A stretch of DNA of 19,381 nucleotides, taken from the IMG/VR virus record IMGVR_UViG_2861069343_000003, positions 1 through 19,381 of that record, one strand, 5' to 3'. This document shows positions 1-18,110 of the stretch, one piece after another. The stretch is from a virus. Lineage: Duplodnaviria > Heunggongvirae > Uroviricota > Caudoviricetes. The position numbers were made by a program, and so were the translations under genes. How positions within the stretch are numbered: the first letter of the stretch is position 1; each line of letters opens with the position of its first letter. The notes under the pieces are model-generated. The model did no database searches, was not told the DNA's origin, and saw nothing but the letters and a program-made list of their open reading frames with translations.

Positions 1-552
1 ATGCATGACAATATTTGGTTTACATATAAAGCACGTATCCAAGCGCACCATCGACTAGAATGGCTTGAAAAACACTCTCAATTTATCCTCGTTTGGTATG
101 CTATATTGAGTGCGGTACTTTCAATTGTAACGTTGCGATTTCCAAAGGTTCTAGGAGATAATACAGATATCGTTGCGGCGATACTTTCAGTGGCTCTACT
201 GGGTATTTCTCTGATCGTATCTAACCTAGATTTTCGTGGTCGAGCAATAGCTATGAGAAGGAATTATATTGCACTACAGCGACTCTATTTTGACATTACC
301 ACCAGTCAACAGTTATCTCTTGAACAGAAAGAAAAATATTTTAATTTGCTCAATGAGGTTGAGAATCACCGTGACATAGATGATAAAATTTCAAGGGTAA
401 CTCAAGTTGGACTTAAGACGAGGATCCCCACACAAAAAGAAAAAATAATTGTTATTTTATGGATATTACTTCGAATATTTATTACTGCCGCACTTTATAT
501 ACTCCCATTAATATATCTTTGGATTGACTATGACTGCAAGCAGAATTTTTAA
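1..552 (+). CDS. Small multi-pass membrane protein (183 aa), possibly SLATT-like; candidate effector partner of the downstream reverse transcriptase
   Basis: ORF starts at the first base of the window, so the true start may lie upstream. Three hydrophobic helices by eye (FILVWYAILSAVLSIVTL, IVAAILSVALLGISLIVSNL, IIVILWILLRIFITAALYILPLIYLWI) flank a charged helical segment. The 3' end overlaps the RT start by about 25 nt in another frame, suggesting translational coupling. AT-rich. Confidence 0.6.
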   Translation: MHDNIWFTYKARIQAHHRLEWLEKHSQFILVWYAILSAVLSIVTLRFPKVLGDNTDIVAAILSVALLGISLIVSNLDFRGRAIAMRRNYIALQRLYFDITTSQQLSLEQKEKYFNLLNEVENHRDIDDKISRVTQVGLKTRIPTQKEKIIVILWILLRIFITAALYILPLIYLWIDYDCKQNF

Positions 553-1900
553 AAAGTCATTCTCGAAAAAAAACCTTCTAAAAGTATACTCTGAAAAAAT
601 CAAAGAATCAGGAGCGATTGGCATAGATCGGATTCGCCCATCAAAACTTGATTTGACAATAAAAAATGAGATCACTTTCATTTTTGAAAAGGTTAATTCT
701 GGCAATTACAAATTTACAGCATATAAAGAAAAATTAATATCTAAAGGCGCTAACTCTACACCCAGACAGATTTCCATACCAACTGCTAGGGACAGAATTA
801 CTCTTAGAGCTCTCTGTGAATGCCTTACGGAAATATATCCTAAGTCCAGATTAAAACTACCACATACAGTAATTGACTCATTGAAAGAAGCATTAAACAA
901 CAGTCTATATGCTGAATATGCAAAAATAGATCTTAAAAGTTTCTATCCTTCAATTGAACATAAATTGATAATTAATGCAATAAAAAATAAAATTAGAAAA
1001 AAAGAAATTAGACAGTTAATAACATCATCATTAATCGTGCCTACTGTAAGTGGAACCACAGGAAGCAAAGGTATCCCTAATAATACCAGAGGAGTACCTC
1101 AGGGATTAGCGATATCAAACATTTTAGCTGAAATATCACTATCTAATTTCGATGATGAAATCAATAAAATGCATGACATATGGTACATGCGATACGTTGA
1201 TGACATTCTTATTTTAACACCAAAATATCAAGCAACAAAAATAGCTTCTCATATCATTGATAAGCTTCAATCATTAAATTTAAACCCACATCCATTAAAT
1301 GAAGAGAACTCAAAATCCAAAGTAGGCAGTTTGGATGAAAGTTTTAACTTTTTGGGATACCACATAGAAAATCGAGAATTATTGATAAAACATGAGAGCA
1401 TTCTTAGATTTGAGTCATCCTTAGCAAAAATTTTTACTGCATATAGGCACGCTCTACTACAAGCTAAAAGTAAGCGTGATAAAGAACGAGCTGTTGCATA
1501 TTGTCAGTGGAAACTAAATCTCAGAATTACGGGATGTGTGTTTGAAGGTAAACGATTGGGATGGGTATCGTACTTCTCACAAATAACCTCAACAGCTCAA
1601 CTTCGCTCTGTTAATCATACTATCAATAATCTTATCCGCCGATTCGGCCTTTCATCAGAAATAAAACCAAAATCTTTGATTAAAACTTTCTATGAACTCC
1701 GCAGAGGTAGAGCGGAGACTTTTAAATACATACCTAACTTTGACAATCTACATATATCTCAGAAACGAGAACTTGTTTCTATGTGGATAGGTAAAGAGAA
1801 GGAAAAAAAACTTAGCAATAGTGAAATAGAGAGGAAGTTTAAATTTAAAATTGCGAAATCAGTAAAAGAGCTTGAAGAGGATATTTCAGGAATATCATAG
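524..1900 (+). CDS. Reverse transcriptase, 458 aa (defence-type RT: retron, UG/Abi or DRT-like; subfamily not assignable by eye)
   Basis: RT motifs are visible in the translation: IPTARDRITLRAL (motif 1/2), KIDLKSFYPSIEHKLI (motif A), GVPQGLAISNILAEISL (motif B'), YMRYVDDILIL (YxDD catalytic motif C), FLGYHIEN (motif E). A helical C-terminal extension of about 160 aa follows. Position 524 is a TTG; ATG at 530 is the more likely start. Confidence 0.88.
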   Translation: MTMTASRIFKKSFSKKNLLKVYSEKIKESGAIGIDRIRPSKLDLTIKNEITFIFEKVNSGNYKFTAYKEKLISKGANSTPRQISIPTARDRITLRALCECLTEIYPKSRLKLPHTVIDSLKEALNNSLYAEYAKIDLKSFYPSIEHKLIINAIKNKIRKKEIRQLITSSLIVPTVSGTTGSKGIPNNTRGVPQGLAISNILAEISLSNFDDEINKMHDIWYMRYVDDILILTPKYQATKIASHIIDKLQSLNLNPHPLNEENSKSKVGSLDESFNFLGYHIENRELLIKHESILRFESSLAKIFTAYRHALLQAKSKRDKERAVAYCQWKLNLRITGCVFEGKRLGWVSYFSQITSTAQLRSVNHTINNLIRRFGLSSEIKPKSLIKTFYELRRGRAETFKYIPNFDNLHISQKRELVSMWIGKEKEKKLSNSEIERKFKFKIAKSVKELEEDISGIS

Positions 1901-14495: not shown

Positions 14496-15115
14496 TGACC
14501 ACATTTACCGATAAAGAACTGATTAAAGAAATCAAAGAGCGTATCAGCAGCCTGGAGGTTCGAGACGATATTGAGCGCCGTGCTTATGAAATTGCTCTGG
14601 CATCGCTGGAAGAGGAGCCGGTGGCATGGCTACATTCAGACAATGGCTTAGGTATTCCAGCAATAACCAGGAGTAAAAACATTGCTGACAGTTGGTTATC
14701 AAAGGGCTGGTATGTTCAGCCGCTATATATAGCCAAGCCAGTGCCGGTGGTGCCAGATGCTCGTCCGACTTTAAATAATGGCATAGTCGGTTTTGATGAA
14801 GGCTGGAACGCCTGCCGCACCACCATGCTTCACGGTGTCAAACCTGTAAGCCAGACTTACAAGTTGAACAAGCTGTCTGACAACTCTCCGGTAACTCCGG
14901 ATGGTTGGATAAGCTGTAGTGAGCGAATGCCGAACGATAAACAATATGTTTGGTGTTGGGGTAAGTCTTACGGCTGGACTGAGTGCGATACCTTCGAAGG
15001 GTATTACGATTGTTCGAGAAACAAATGGTGGGCAGTTACTGACGATGGGGAAGAACCGGCATTGAAAGTAACCCACTGGATGCCGCTACCGGAGCCACCG
15101 CAGGAGGTGAAGTAA
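14495..15115 (+). CDS. yfdT: YfdT-like protein with C-terminal DUF551-type domain (206 aa)
   Basis: C-terminus WISCSERMPNDKQYVWCWGKSYGWTECDTFEGYYD...KVTHWMPLPEPP resembles DUF551. Start and stop are both coupled to neighbours through TAATG overlaps. The K-12 copy is shorter as I recall. Confidence 0.6.
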   Translation: MTTFTDKELIKEIKERISSLEVRDDIERRAYEIALASLEEEPVAWLHSDNGLGIPAITRSKNIADSWLSKGWYVQPLYIAKPVPVVPDARPTLNNGIVGFDEGWNACRTTMLHGVKPVSQTYKLNKLSDNSPVTPDGWISCSERMPNDKQYVWCWGKSYGWTECDTFEGYYDCSRNKWWAVTDDGEEPALKVTHWMPLPEPPQEVK

Positions 15116-15309
15116 TGAACAACTTAATGACAACTAAACAAGTCGCCGACTTCTGTGGCGTTTCAGTATCGACAGTTCTTCGCTGGAACAGCGTAAACAG
15201 GAGAACTGGCCAGAAATATAGGCCTGACTTTCCAGATCCTGATATTAAATCCTGCCCCAATAAATGGGCATCACACAAGATATACAGGTTTGCGGGAGTT
15301 ATTGAGTAA
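15115..15309 (+). CDS. AlpA/Xis-family helix-turn-helix protein (putative excisionase or regulator), 64 aa
   Basis: HTH segment TTKQVADFCGVSVSTVLRW is typical of AlpA/phage-excisionase HTH proteins. It is the last gene of the plus-strand operon and converges on the integrase-side cargo gene. Confidence 0.65.
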   Translation: MNNLMTTKQVADFCGVSVSTVLRWNSVNRRTGQKYRPDFPDPDIKSCPNKWASHKIYRFAGVIE

Positions 15310-15322
15310 TACGTATTAGTTC

Positions 15323-15387
15323 AGATGTGAGCTAACACATCTATGGCACAGAGCTAAACCTAATCTGACTGTCTACTCTGTGCCATA
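15323..15387. repeat. Two adjacent inverted repeats (hairpins) in the convergent intergenic region between the AlpA-like gene and the 870-aa cargo gene
   Basis: AGATGTG (15323-15329) pairs with CACATCT (15336-15342) around a 6-nt loop. TATGGCACAGAG (15342-15353) pairs with CTCTGTGCCATA (15376-15387), a perfect 12-bp stem with a 22-nt loop. Neither has a clean U-tract. They lie exactly at the composition change into the AT-rich cassette. Confidence 0.4.
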
Positions 15388-15442
15388 AGTGGATGTTAAT
15401 TACTTCTTGGTATTTTAATGGTTGGATAGCTTATCAAGATTA

Positions 15443-18055
15443 CTAATCACCCTGTGATGTAAAATAAAACCAATGGTATTCTAGAGCTTGCATAGACAAC
15501 CCAACCTTGTCCCTCAATAGGACACCATTCAGCTCCTGATAGTACCTATCGCGCACCATATCACTTACGTGAATCCTTAAAGTCGCTGGGTCAATAGATA
15601 TTAGATAGTTATCAAAGAGACGATGTATATCAGTACGCAATAACAAGCCATTTTTTATATGATTATCCTTATCTCCTCTGTAAGGATAAATATGAGCTGC
15701 ATCAAGTACTGCTATTGTTTTGCACCCAGTAAAGGCACATTGCCCCCAAACGTTTATCAGTTTATTTCTGAAGTCGCTTTGACCTATACGTATCGTGACG
15801 TTTCTATTTATAACCTTTCGTTCATCAGAGTTATTTATTTTAAAACTCCCTGCTGTTGAAAAATCAAATTTTTCAGTCGCACTAAATATTTTTTTAGATT
15901 GTTTTTTTACTTTTGCAAGCTGTAAATCTGACTTTATTTGTAAGGGTTTTGAGTTTTCTTCATCAAACGATGGAAGTTGAAGTTCTTTAATCATGCTGGT
16001 AGATAGAAAATTTTTGTAACTCATTAACTTAAAATCTAATCCTCGCTCATAACGAATTTTAGAGAGCACTATTGCAGCTTCTTCAATGTATTTAAAACTA
16101 CTTTTCCTTTTATCCCATAATTGAGATAAACAATCTGCATTTAACCTATCATATCTTGATAAAATCTCACCCAAACTGCTGGCTTTAGCGGCGCTATCAT
16201 AGTTTATATACTGTTTTTCTTGGGAATCTTCAATGGAATCCAGAATAAAATTTATATTTACATGATTATCTGCATCTGCATCTGCAGATGCAGATGAATC
16301 ATTAAAATTATCGTAGTCAAGAGAATTTTGATCACTCCAAATAGGTAGCGATAGATAGCAAATATTATCAATGCTGTCGTCCACCAACATTAATTTTTGG
16401 TGGAGTAAAAATAATATAACTGAAGCTTCAAGGTAATTCATTTCTTGTGACAAGAATTTTTCTTTAAGCATATCAAAGTCATATTGTACGTATTCATTTT
16501 TTTTCTTTGATATTACGGAGAGTTGCTCTTCACTTAAGACCACTGGCCTGTCTTCTGATATATTACGAAGTAAGTATGAAATCAATTTTTTTTGATTTTT
16601 TTTAGAATCTTCAGACCTAGGAGGTTCGAGAAACACACCTTCAAGTCTATCCAATGCTTTAAGGCAACTTCCCGCAAGCCTAGTCATCGCATCTTTTCTT
16701 GTTTGAATTAGAGGATCTGCATAGATAACAAAATTATCCCCATTACGAATATGAGCTATTTCAAGCTGATATACATCTAGATTTTTTATAAGTTTAAATA
16801 CAAATCCGTATTTTTGCATTCTATGCAAAGTCAGTGTCGGTATAATATCTTTATTAGATTCTTCATCCAAATTATAGTTTTTTATTCTTTTGTACAACCA
16901 ATTTGTTGCAGAGGAAGAGCAAATTAACTCATTATATTGAATTTTACTATTTTTAGTTATCAGATTTAGAAGAGACATTCCAAACAATGCCTGAATACAA
17001 TCTACATAATAAGATATAGTTGTATAATCTGGATGTCCTTTATAGGGGAGAGAATCTATTGAAATAAAACCTGAGTTATAGAATCTCATAAAGTTTTTTT
17101 CAGATAACACCATGATCCCTAACGTAGTTCTGTCAATAACATTCTGTCCATTTTTTATTATCTCAAGTAGGCTTACTGAAGCTAGTAAGGAAATATAATG
17201 CGAACCTAAAGTAGCGAGATCTCTGTGCGAACTTATAGATCTATTTTTACCCTTTATTCTAGGGGGTATAAAAGCCTGGATTGAATTAAAGTTATTTGAA
17301 AAACCAAAAGCCATGTTCAATTCATTGTTGATGTAACACTCTTTAACATTCGGTTTCTGTACGCCACCCCATGCTGAAATAATACTATTAGATTTTAATA
17401 TTTGTTTTTTATTGTTTTTCAAATTCAAATGATTGCAAACTAAACTGGCAACATTATTCTCTGCTTTTTTTTTACTCTCACCACTTCCGATAAATATCTG
17501 TCCATTAGGAAGTGCTATTTCAGACTCATATATTGGTGCATGCTCGGTCCCACCAGCCAAGGTGGTTTTGTATGTAGGGATTATGTGTTGATGTCTTTGG
17601 AAATATTCATGTAAAAGAGTTTTTGGGGGTTTGCCAACAAATGACTCCGTAATAGAAAGGCTTTCAACAAAAAATTTGAGATGTAATATGATATCACAAT
17701 TAGATATCGCCCCTAGGTAAAATTGAAATATTTGAATTATCATAGAAGATGAGTTGATTTCTTCTTGTTTTACTCCAGGACCAAATTCTGTTTGTTGGTA
17801 GACTTTTGTTAAGGGAAAATTTGTAACAACAAGCTCTCTTAGTTTTTTCTTCAGGCTGCTAGTCATAATGCTTAAATTGTTACCATCCGCACCTTCTATA
17901 CTCAGAGACCGACAAGCGCAGATTAAATCCTCAAGCGACTTACCAACTGATACAGTTGCGTTAAACAATTCAGTATTGCAATTAAAAGATGAACGATGAC
18001 TTATCTGAATATAATTTTCGTTGATATGATTTATGAATAACTTATTCATTTTCAC
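15443..18055 (-). CDS. 870-aa multidomain protein: N-terminal catalytically degenerate RNase III-like domain plus dsRBD, central region with a possible second RNase III-like repeat, C-terminal HNH nuclease domain; candidate defence effector
   Basis: By-eye alignment to E. coli RNase III across residues 15-210: ISHRSS / LTHRSA, FGPGVKQ / [22 protein letters not shown] / [37 protein letters not shown] / [29 protein letters not shown] / [23 protein letters not shown] / GTGSSRRKAEQAAA. The ERLEFLGD box is replaced by TELFNATV and the D/E of ADTVEA by Q/Q. C-terminus (residues 750-845): [11 protein letters not shown]...GQCAFTGC...LDAAHIYP...[15 protein letters not shown], an HNH-type motif. Strongly AT-rich. 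The track start at 18055 is a GTG; ATG at 18049 is the alternative. Confidence 0.85.
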   Translation of the reverse strand: [870 protein letters not shown]

Positions 18056-18081: not shown

Positions 18082-18110
18082 ATTGTACGTGATATCAACT
18101 ACTTGCTCAA
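18082..18110 (-). promoter_or_regulatory. Putative sigma70 promoter for the 870-aa gene
   Basis: On the minus strand: -35 TTGAGC (plus-strand 18105-18110), a 17-nt spacer, and -10 TACAAT (plus-strand 18082-18087). This is in the 102-bp gap between the integrase stop and the cargo gene start. Confidence 0.4.

What the first reader, a model, noticed from the sequence alone, without database searches (positions are those of the whole stretch)
16946..17263. Possible second degenerate RNase III-like repeat in the same protein (intramolecular pseudo-dimer?)
Residues about 265-370 again show the RNase III pattern: [17 protein letters not shown] (compare ERLEFLGDSILSYVIA, with LG kept and D replaced by S) and [18 protein letters not shown] (compare [16 protein letters not shown], with D kept and E replaced by Q). 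RNase III normally acts as a dimer. Two tandem RNase III-like domains in one chain would resemble Dicer/Drosha-type intramolecular dimers, here apparently inactive. This is weaker than the N-terminal match and rests on short motifs.
Basis: inference. Interest (0 to 1): 0.55.

Follow-up and report, generated by a model that had tools for sequence, protein, structure and literature searches.

The report
Dead double RNase III fused to HNH
The flagged segment is a real but catalytically dead second RNase III-like domain in a rare prophage-borne E. coli protein that copies the two-domain layout of Dicer/Drosha and carries an intact HNH DNA-cutting domain, so it may be a bacterial sensor of double-stranded RNA.

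Summary
Residues 265-370 of the 870-aa ORF (window 15443-18055, minus strand) contain both motifs as quoted.

Residues ~241-399 are a degenerate RNase III catalytic-type domain (RIIID), followed by a degenerate dsRBD (405-472). A whole bacterial RNase III unit is therefore duplicated in one chain.

- **Sequence.** Module 2 aligns end to end with authentic RNase III (hhalign P=0.005, 203 columns). None of 150 column shuffles reached that score.
- **Active site.** Three of the four metal ligands are lost in module 2, and their replacements are fixed across 22 relatives. Module 1 is also dead.
- **Other domains.** dsRBD1 and the C-terminal HNH_2 motif are fully conserved.
- **Context.** The family is very rare: 20 clusters in 1.84 billion proteins. 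Members lie by integrases or GmrSD genes, with no conserved partner gene.

My inference is a non-cleaving duplex-RNA sensing platform that controls an HNH DNase in anti-phage defence. The architecture is undescribed and the function is untested.

The parts
15443..18055 (-). Whole ORF, 870 aa from the GTG start (RefSeq annotates 868 aa from M3 as 'HNH endonuclease', WP_086625076.1). Architecture: [RIIID-like + dsRBD] x2, a ~290-aa middle region, then HNH_2.
18082..18110 (-). Sigma-70-like promoter match in the 100-nt gap between the integrase gene and the ORF start. Consensus match only.
   Evidence: TTGAGC-17-TACAAT, 9 of 12; such matches are not enriched over shuffles
17636..18055 (-). Module 1, RNase III catalytic-type domain (residues ~1-140), degenerate. 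The five catalytic-site positions are N32, V35, K39, Q108 and Q111, and they vary among relatives.
   Evidence: hhalign vs RNase III P=2.6e-4 over 118 columns, 0 of 200 shuffles reach it. Module 1 with its dsRBD: E=1.6e-29 over 197 columns. Site composition.
17426..17626 (-). dsRBD1 (residues 144-210), canonical. All three dsRNA-contact regions are conserved: K145/T146/L148/Q149/E150/Q153, G169-x-x-H172, and S194/K195/K196/A198/E199.
   Evidence: Pfam dsrm E=2.6e-10; TIGR02191 RNaseIII C-terminal part; PDB hits; composition
16859..17335 (-). Module 2, RNase III catalytic-type domain (residues ~241-399). This is the finding (16946-17263) extended to the full domain. It is all-helical and is predicted to pair with module 1 as an intramolecular pseudo-dimer.
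17201..17230 (-). Counterpart of the RNase III signature motif, [10 protein letters not shown] (residues 276-285). E. coli E38 becomes R278 (20 R, 2 K), E41 becomes A281 (22/22), G44 is kept as G284 (22/22), and D45 becomes S/A285.
16979..17011 (-). Counterpart of the second catalytic helix, [11 protein letters not shown] (residues 349-359). D114 is kept as D352 (21/22) and E117 becomes Q355 (22/22). C353 is conserved in 21/22.
16640..16843 (-). dsRBD2-like domain (residues 405-472). It has alpha-beta-beta-beta-alpha topology, is degenerate (no GPxH loop, partial KK motif), and gives no Pfam hit.
   Evidence: Model secondary structure H405-414, E418-425, E428-435, E441-445, H453-472. hhalign places it colinearly on the RNase III dsRBD; 0 of 200 shuffles reach the score.
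15776..16639 (-). Middle region (residues 473-760) of unknown function. It contains helices, an acidic or Pro/Ala-rich variable linker, and a conserved block [30 protein letters not shown] (residues ~645-677).
   Evidence: no Pfam hit; the structure was not modelled with confidence
15590..15739 (-). HNH_2 nuclease core (residues 773-822). H788, N802 and H811 are present in every member that has the domain, as are C773, D797, R807, D809 and D815. Predicted to be active.
   Evidence: Pfam PF13391 E=1.5e-13; PADLOC generic HNH models; composition

Best explanation
The flagged segment is the core of a second, catalytically dead RNase III-type domain (residues ~241-399). It is followed by a second, degenerate dsRBD (405-472).

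Together with the N-terminal dead RNase III domain and canonical dsRBD (1-210), the protein carries two complete bacterial-RNase-III-like units in one chain. In the model these pack against each other like the RIIIDa/RIIIDb intramolecular dimer of Drosha and Dicer. These structural points are shown by profile comparison and by the model.

The platform cannot cleave RNA. Module 2 lacks three of the four Mg-binding carboxylates, and module 1 keeps none of them.

The mechanism is inferred. The pseudo-dimer plus dsRBD1 would form a non-cleaving clamp for A-form duplex, most likely phage-derived dsRNA or possibly RNA-DNA hybrid. Occupancy of that clamp would license or position the conserved C-terminal HNH_2 DNase to cut DNA. 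The protein would then be a stand-alone anti-phage (restriction or abortive-infection type) protein carried in prophage and integrative-island cargo slots.

Confidence by part: about 0.85 for 'dead RNase III domain in a Dicer-like pseudo-dimer', about 0.4 for 'dsRNA-sensing switch for an HNH DNase in defence'. The 0.7 given as overall confidence rests mainly on the structural part.
For: **Sequence**
- hhalign of segment 2 vs 34 authentic RNase III sequences: P=0.013, 110 colinear columns, motifs in register. 3 of 200 shuffles reach the score.
- Module 2 (240-482) vs full-length RNase III: 203-223 colinear columns covering the catalytic domain and the dsRBD, P=0.0047 local and 0.0018 global. 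0 of 150 shuffles reach it.
- The only PDB hit of the segment profile is Dicer-2 RIIIDb.
- Pfam Ribonuclease_3 and Ribonucleas_3_3 appear as weak hits in single members.

**Structure**
- AF2 on the 19-sequence alignment: pLDDT 84.5, pTM 0.80.
- Foldseek vs PDB: top hit is E. coli RNase III (E=2e-6), with Dicer/Drosha/DCL hits spanning 487-563 columns.
- BFVD: best hit is a 539-aa giant-virus 'putative ribonuclease 3' aligned over 554 alignment columns (gaps included), i.e. essentially full length, E=8.6e-11.
- The module matches RNA-bound closed RNase III complexes (7r97, 2ez6, 2nug; TMt 0.54-0.57) better than open ones (TMt 0.33-0.43).

**Dead sites**
- The ligand roles of Aa E40, D44, D107 and E110, and the essential E110/E117, are taken from PMC3867540.

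**Intact parts**
- dsRBD1 RNA-contact residues and the HNH H-N-H motif are conserved in all members that have them.

**Defence context**
- Here the gene lies directly beside the integrase at the end of a lambdoid prophage remnant, whose other end carries a SLATT+RT_UG17 DRT pair.
- A homologue lies next to two GmrSD genes.
- Another lies in a 6-kb integrase/resolvase islet in Pseudomonas laurentiana.
- No partner gene is conserved.
- The gene is present in 17 of 5426 E. coli genomes.
- Its GC content is 0.31-0.34, against about 0.5 for neighbouring sequence.
Against: - No Pfam, NCBIfam or PDB sequence hit reaches significance for segment 2 on its own.
- hhalign probabilities are low (3-7%), and P-values of 0.005-0.013 are only moderate.
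- Module 1 and module 2 do not detectably match each other.
- The pseudo-dimer rests on one AF2 model built from 19 sequences. AF2 may impose a learned RNase III dimer geometry.
- I could not inspect coordinates or PAE, and could not search the second domain separately.
- A 4-sequence alignment gave an unusable model (pLDDT 34).
- Nothing here shows RNA binding, DNA cleavage or phage defence.
- The only PADLOC matches are generic HNH models.
- dsRBD-type folds and dead RNase III domains can serve purely protein-protein roles.
Confidence: 0.7

Rival explanations
1. The pseudo-RNase III platform does not sense RNA. It recognises DNA, for example modified, A-form-like or R-loop DNA. The protein would then be a modification- or structure-dependent restriction enzyme of the type IV kind, in which variable N-terminal reader domains direct an HNH_2 nuclease.
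For: - The HNH_2 core resembles restriction-type HNH models. PADLOC 'Type II restriction enzyme' HNH gives 1.2e-7. NCBIfam PT-DNA_restrict gives 2e-4, far below its cut-off.
- HNH_2 groups include restriction endonucleases (PMC5714182).
- One homologue sits beside GmrSD type IV genes.
- The protein is a stand-alone gene with no methylase or partner.
Against: - dsRBD1 keeps every canonical dsRNA-contact residue. From general knowledge of the fold, dsRBDs discriminate strongly for A-form RNA duplexes.
- No known modified-DNA reader domain (SRA, SBD, YTH, PUA) is detected.
Confidence: 0.17
2. The two dead RNase III domains are only a structural or dimerisation scaffold, like the pseudo-RNase III proteins of mitochondrial ribosomes. 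They would have no ligand-sensing role, and the protein would be a constitutive or otherwise regulated HNH nuclease, toxin or mobile-element nuclease.
For: - Mitoribosomal RNase III-like proteins (mL44, mL57) appear among the structural matches.
- The catalytic-site positions of module 1 drift freely.
Against: - The dead site of module 2 is under strong constraint: R278, A281, D352, C353 and Q355 are invariant or nearly so.
- dsRBD1 is fully canonical. Neither would be expected for a mere scaffold.
Confidence: 0.08
3. Segment 2 is an active, non-canonical RNase III domain, and the protein is a genuine dsRNA-cleaving enzyme as well as a DNase.
For: - D352, the counterpart of D114, is retained in 21 of 22 members.
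- JGI auto-annotation calls one homologue 'dsRNA-specific ribonuclease'.
Against: - The counterparts of E41, D45 and E117 are A, A/S and Q in all 22 members.
- E117/E110 bridges both Mg ions and is functionally essential (PMC3867540).
- Module 1 has none of the ligands, so no composite two-site processing centre can form.
Confidence: 0.03
4. The resemblance is a chance match of short motifs in an unrelated helical domain.
For: - There is no significant Pfam or PDB sequence hit for the segment.
- 3 of 200 shuffles reach the segment-only hhalign score.
Against: - The alignment is colinear over 110-220 columns, including the flanking N-terminal helices and the following dsRBD. 0 of 150 shuffles reach the module score.
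Confidence: 0.02

Closest known systems
Class 2/3 RNase III enzymes (Drosha; Dicer, including the minimal Giardia Dicer)
   Different: - This protein is bacterial and prophage-borne.
- Both sites are catalytically dead.
- No PAZ, platform, helicase or connector domains are detected.
- Each RIIID is followed by its own dsRBD, so the protein looks like a direct duplication of a bacterial class 1 gene.
- It has a C-terminal HNH_2 DNase, which no Dicer or Drosha has.
Bacterial class 1 RNase III (Rnc; E. coli 7r97, A. aeolicus 2ez6/2nug)
   Same: Each module has the RIIID+dsRBD layout of Rnc and aligns with it end to end. These are the top Foldseek hits. dsRBD1 matches TIGR02191.
   Different: - Rnc is a 220-aa homodimer with E38, E41, D45, D114 and E117 intact. 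Here two diverged copies are fused and those residues are lost.
- The Pfam Ribonuclease_3 cut-off is not met.
Pseudo-RNase III proteins (mitoribosomal mL44/mL57, plant RTL4/NFD2, fungal R3B2)
   Same: These are RNase III folds that have lost or altered catalysis and serve as binding or structural modules. They appear among the structural matches.
   Different: They are eukaryotic, separate chains or single domains, are not fused to a DNase, and have no role in mobile-element cargo.
HNH_2 (PF13391) restriction-type nucleases with N-terminal reader domains (the ScoMcrA / phosphorothioate-dependent type and type IIS enzymes such as HphI)
   Same: The C-terminal HNH_2 core has a conserved H-N-H. 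The logic of a single polypeptide combining reader and nuclease is shared, as is the defence-island context.
   Different: The NCBIfam PT-DNA_restrict score is 20.5 against a cut-off of 180.

Membership tests
RNase III catalytic domain (Pfam PF00636 / PF14622) | Sequence match above the family's curated threshold | tested here: not met
   There is no Ribonuclease_3 hit on the whole protein even at E<=10. Among 22 segment-2 sequences, one reaches E=0.027 (PF00636) and one reaches E=0.27 (PF14622). Only profile-profile comparison detects the match, at P=0.013 to 0.005.
RNase III catalytic domain (Pfam PF00636 / PF14622) | All-alpha RIIID fold | tested here: met
RNase III catalytic domain (Pfam PF00636 / PF14622) | Signature motif ERLEFLGD and the acidic metal ligands (Ec E41, D45, D114, E117; plus E38) | tested here: not met
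   In module 2 these positions are R/K, A (22/22), A/S, D (21/22) and Q (22/22). In module 1 they are N, V, K, Q and Q, and they vary among relatives. Ligand roles come from PMC3867540.
RNase III catalytic domain (Pfam PF00636 / PF14622) | Mg-dependent cleavage of dsRNA | not testable with these tools
   This needs biochemistry. The residue pattern predicts that it is absent.
Class 2/3 RNase III (Drosha/Dicer type) | Two RIIIDs in one chain forming an intramolecular dimer | tested here: met
Class 2/3 RNase III (Drosha/Dicer type) | Accessory PAZ/platform/helicase (Dicer) or P-rich/RS/CED regions (Drosha), and a two-site processing centre | tested here: not met
   There are no such Pfam hits, and both sites lack the catalytic residues. 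The protein works like a Dicer scaffold but is not a member of that class.
dsRBD (Pfam PF00035 dsrm) | Profile match and the three RNA-contact regions (first dsRBD, residues 144-210) | tested here: met
   E=2.6e-10, 41.2 bits against a cut-off of 23. The contact residues are conserved in 16-20 of the 20 members that have this domain.
dsRBD (Pfam PF00035 dsrm) | Profile match and fold for the second candidate (residues 405-472) | tested here: inconclusive
   There is no Pfam or PDB sequence hit; the weak PDB hits are MarR proteins, E=0.12. The model does show alpha-beta-beta-beta-alpha topology. hhalign places it colinearly on the RNase III dsRBD (P=0.011 alone). The GPxH loop is absent.
HNH_2 (PF13391) nucleases | Profile match with the catalytic His, the Asn, and the second His | tested here: met
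   E=1.5e-13, 50.8 bits against a cut-off of 21. H788, N802 and H811 are present in 18 of the 18 members that have the domain.
Named anti-phage defence systems (PADLOC-DB v2.0.0) | Match to a model of a named system over more than the generic nuclease core | tested here: not met
   Only two generic HNH models match, both confined to residues 715-837. Nothing matches residues 1-700.
Anti-phage defence gene (functional class) | Protects against phage when expressed | not testable with these tools
   The evidence is context only: an integrase-adjacent prophage cargo slot, a DRT pair at the other prophage end, GmrSD neighbours in a homologue, and patchy distribution.

The most novel reading that the evidence does not exclude
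This family would be a bacterial, single-chain 'dead Dicer': an innate immune receptor that recognises viral double-stranded RNA through a non-cleaving RNase III pseudo-dimer plus dsRBD. It would answer by switching on a fused HNH DNase (restriction or abortive infection). That would be a prokaryotic counterpart of eukaryotic dsRNA sensing (Dicer, PKR, RIG-I-like logic), built from a duplicated bacterial rnc gene.
Probability: 0.3. Interest if true: 0.85.

Novelty: new variant of a known kind. Interest (0 to 1): 0.66.

Why it matters
By the standard classification, which I state from general knowledge, two RNase III domains in one chain forming an intramolecular dimer define the eukaryotic Drosha/Dicer classes. 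Bacterial RNase III is a homodimer of single-domain chains.

A bacterial family that has independently fused two complete RNase III units, killed both active sites, fixed the replacement residues in one of them, and attached a DNase would be useful in three ways:
- It would be a natural example of how Dicer-like architecture arises by duplication of rnc.
- It is a candidate dsRNA (or hybrid) sensor in bacterial immunity. Direct nucleic-acid-structure sensing is still poorly documented there.
- It could serve as a compact duplex-RNA-responsive DNase for tool building.

I found no paper describing this architecture in seven of the eight full-text searches run. Public annotation is only 'HNH endonuclease' or 'putative dsRNA-binding protein'.

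Tried and rejected
1. **Pfam, NCBIfam and PADLOC on the whole protein.** Only dsrm and HNH_2 matched. There was no RNase III catalytic hit.
2. **PDB profile searches.**
   - The 4-sequence (A2) and 22-sequence (A6) profiles of the second region gave nothing significant.
   - The N-terminal domain profile alone (A7) also gave nothing.
   - The region 400-482 profile (A8) gave weak MarR winged-helix hits. I rejected the winged-helix reading because the model topology is alpha-beta-beta-beta-alpha and hhalign places the region on the RNase III dsRBD.
3. **Direct test of tandem duplication.** hhalign of module 2 against module 1 was not significant. The duplication is therefore inferred only through each module's match to RNase III.
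4. **AF2 on the full-length protein with a 4-sequence alignment.** The model was unusable, with pLDDT 34.
5. **The search for homologous proteins with alignment A2.** It returned nothing, which looks like a tool quirk.
6. **The search for related loci on genome contigs.** With A10, 23 pattern matches were found but none was confirmed.
7. **The afdb50 fold library** was unavailable.
8. **A conserved 239-aa upstream partner.** Both L002 and L008 have a 239-aa gene upstream, so I tested for homology. The two proteins are unrelated.
9. **Literature.** Searches for this architecture or the RefSeq accession found nothing relevant.
Full report
**1. The observation**

The finding lies in one long ORF on the minus strand, window 15443-18055. 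It encodes 870 aa from a GTG start. RefSeq annotates 868 aa from M3 as 'HNH endonuclease'.

Translating 16946-17263(-) gives residues 265-370, with [17 protein letters not shown] and [18 protein letters not shown] exactly as quoted.

**2. What standard annotation sees**

Pfam finds only two domains: a dsRBD (dsrm, residues 144-210, E=2.6e-10) and a C-terminal HNH_2 (773-822, E=1.5e-13). NCBIfam matches only the C-terminal dsRBD part of the RNase III model TIGR02191. PADLOC matches only generic HNH models over residues 715-837. The flagged segment is therefore invisible to routine tools.

**3. The family**

- The word-indexed search of 5.8 billion proteins found just four clusters.
- An exhaustive HMMER search of 1.84 billion representatives with a profile of residues 225-485 found 20 proteins at E<=1e-3. 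Nearly all are 840-940 aa, with the segment at the same position.
- In the 22-sequence alignment the architecture is constant. Within the finding, A281, G284 and Q355 are invariant. S276, R278, Y349, D352 and C353 are at least 90% conserved.
- Named members come from E. coli, Acinetobacter albensis, Pseudomonas laurentiana and marine metagenomes. They are annotated 'HNH endonuclease', 'putative dsRNA-binding protein' or, automatically, 'dsRNA-specific ribonuclease'.
- The gene occurs in 17 of 5426 complete E. coli genomes.
- A pattern scan of 185,579 species-representative genomes confirmed no relative.

**4. Sequence test of the RNase III hypothesis**

I built a 34-sequence profile of authentic RNase III from Aquificota to E. 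coli.

| Query | Result vs RNase III profile | Shuffle control |
|---|---|---|
| Segment 2 alone | 110 colinear columns, P=0.013 | 3 of 200 reach the score |
| Module 2 (240-482) | 203 columns local, P=0.0047; 223 global, P=0.0018 | 0 of 150 |
| N-terminal domain alone | P=2.6e-4 | 0 of 200 |
| Module 1 (1-214) | E=1.6e-29 | not run |

In the segment-2 alignment, SHRxLAxLGa lies on hnExLEFLGDa and [10 protein letters not shown] lies on SILaDaFEAl.

The module 2 alignment also covers three further elements:
- the N-terminal 'LekkLGYxF..LL..ALTHxS' helices, matched by 'LnxaFGfp...nlipaFIPPR';
- the whole catalytic domain;
- the dsRBD that follows.

The only PDB sequence matched by the segment profile at E<=10 is the Dicer-2 RNase IIIb domain, in the same register. 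At E=0.75 it is not significant alone.

Module 1 and module 2 do not detectably match each other. The duplication is old, and is inferred through each module's match to RNase III.

**5. Structure**

AF2 with four sequences failed, giving pLDDT 34. With the 19-sequence alignment of residues 1-490 it gave mean pLDDT 84.5 and pTM 0.80.

Segment 2 is all-helical. The long helices 278-301 and 347-367 carry the two motifs. After the domain comes H405-414, E418-425, E428-435, E441-445, H453-472, which is the alpha-beta-beta-beta-alpha topology of a dsRBD.

*Foldseek against the PDB*
- The top hit is E. coli RNase III (E=2e-6).
- Dicer, DCL and Drosha chains align over 487-563 columns.
- TMq is 0.40 for Drosha 6lxd, against 0.30 for the single-module E. 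coli RNase III hit.

| Target type | Example | Aligned residues |
|---|---|---|
| Two RIIIDs in one chain | DCL1 | 243 |
| Two RIIIDs in one chain | DCL3 | 275 |
| Two RIIIDs in one chain | Dcr-1 | 266 |
| Two RIIIDs in one chain | Giardia Dicer | 258 at 4.0 A |
| Isolated single RIIID | 3o2r, 1jfz, 9h4a, 2eb1 | 118-142 |
| RIIID + dsRBD | 7r97 | 186 |

*Viral predicted structures.* The best match is a 539-aa giant-virus 'putative ribonuclease 3' aligned over essentially its full length (554 alignment columns, gaps included), E=8.6e-11.

I could not extract coordinates, so the second domain was not searched in isolation. That is the main gap.

**6. Active sites**

In A. aeolicus RNase III the two Mg ions are held by E40, D44, D107 and E110. 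E110 (E117 in E. coli) is essential (PMC3867540).

Mapping through the hhalign alignment gives, for module 2 across 22 members:

| E. coli residue | Module 2 position | Composition |
|---|---|---|
| E38 | R278 | 20 R, 2 K |
| E41 | A281 | 22/22 |
| D45 | 285 | 12 A, 10 S |
| D114 | D352 | 21/22 |
| E117 | Q355 | 22/22 |

Module 1 has N32, V35, K39, Q108 and Q111, and these vary among relatives. Neither domain can be a canonical RNase.

The dead site of module 2 is nevertheless under strong purifying selection, which argues for a retained non-catalytic job.

Two other parts are intact in every member that has them:
- dsRBD1 keeps all three RNA-contact regions: KT.LQE..Q, G..H and SKK.AE.
- The HNH keeps H788, N802 and H811.

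**7. Context**

The gene sits 100 nt from a P4-type tyrosine integrase, at the end of a defective lambdoid prophage inserted between prfC and yjjG. The other end of that prophage carries a SLATT + RT_UG17 (DRT) pair. The gene's GC content is 0.31-0.34, against about 0.5 for neighbouring sequence.

Contexts of homologues:
- one lies next to two GmrSD genes;
- one lies in a 6-kb integrase/resolvase islet between dnaX-ybaB and ligA;
- one lies beside an unrelated small HNH_2 gene and an IS element.

No neighbouring gene is conserved. The two 239-aa upstream genes are unrelated. This is the pattern of a single-gene defence or conflict cargo.

**8. Mechanism**

*Shown, by prediction and comparison:* two RNase III-like units in one chain, packed like a Dicer/Drosha processing centre; both sites dead; a canonical dsRBD; an intact HNH.

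*Inferred:* the pseudo-dimer and dsRBD1 clamp an A-form duplex without cutting it. The RIIID-dsRBD arrangement in the model resembles RNA-bound closed RNase III complexes (7r97, 2ez6, 2nug; TMt 0.54-0.57) more than open ones (TMt 0.33-0.43). This binding event would control or position the HNH DNase. The likely ligand is phage dsRNA. RNA-DNA hybrid or unusual DNA cannot be excluded.

Rivals are listed separately with their odds:
- a DNA-reading enzyme of the type IV restriction kind;
- a purely structural scaffold;
- a non-canonical active RNase;
- a chance resemblance.

**9. Comparison and novelty**

The protein works like a Dicer/Drosha scaffold but fails membership of that class. It has no PAZ, helicase or platform domains and no catalysis.

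It has the RNase III fold but fails the family's sequence threshold and lacks its catalytic residues.

Seven full-text literature searches on this question found no description of a bacterial tandem or dead RNase III fused to HNH. The closest is a HEPN-RNase III-dsRBD fusion in cyanobacteria, noted in PMC3710099.

I rate it a new variant of a known kind. It is of clear interest, but its function is untested.

Noticed in passing
window 1-552 (+) and 530-1900 (+): A SLATT protein (PADLOC RTasSLATT, 1.3e-56) and an overlapping reverse transcriptase of class UG17 (RT_UG17, 1.2e-158). This is a DRT-type defence pair at the opposite end of the same prophage remnant, in a low-GC (0.33) stretch.
   Followed up: partly
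window 16640-16843 (-), residues 405-472: A second, degenerate dsRBD-like domain follows the flagged segment.
   Followed up: yes
window 15956-16174 (-), residues ~628-700: A strongly conserved block ([30 protein letters not shown]) lies between dsRBD2 and the HNH domain. It has no Pfam match and no confident model. It is preceded by an acidic or Pro/Ala-rich linker that varies by about 60 residues among homologues.
   Followed up: no
window 16979-17230 (-), residues R278, A281, D352, C353, Q355: The residues that replace the lost RNase III metal ligands in module 2 are themselves invariant or nearly so across 22 relatives. The equivalent positions in module 1 drift freely. The reason for this asymmetric constraint is unexplained.
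   Followed up: partly
window 15001-18000: The gene has GC 0.31-0.39, against about 0.46-0.62 in the phage tail genes upstream. This is consistent with recent horizontal acquisition as prophage cargo.
   Followed up: no
window 15115-15309 (+): A 64-aa ORF with an N-terminal HTH (HTH_17 / AlpA-like, weak) lies just downstream of two DUF551 genes and converges on the HNH gene. It is possibly an excisionase or regulator of the element.
   Followed up: partly
L006 4511-7925; L008 5323-11647; L002 2153-2872: Homologues lie beside two GmrSD-type genes (L006), inside a 6-kb integrase/resolvase islet between dnaX-ybaB and ligA in Pseudomonas laurentiana (L008), and next to a small unrelated HNH_2 protein plus an IS element (L002). 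No neighbour is conserved.
   Followed up: partly
tool behaviour: the search for homologous proteins queried with alignment A2 returned no hit at E<=1, although all four aligned proteins are in that database. This is probably a word-index artefact, so absence of hits from that call should not be read as biology.
   Followed up: no
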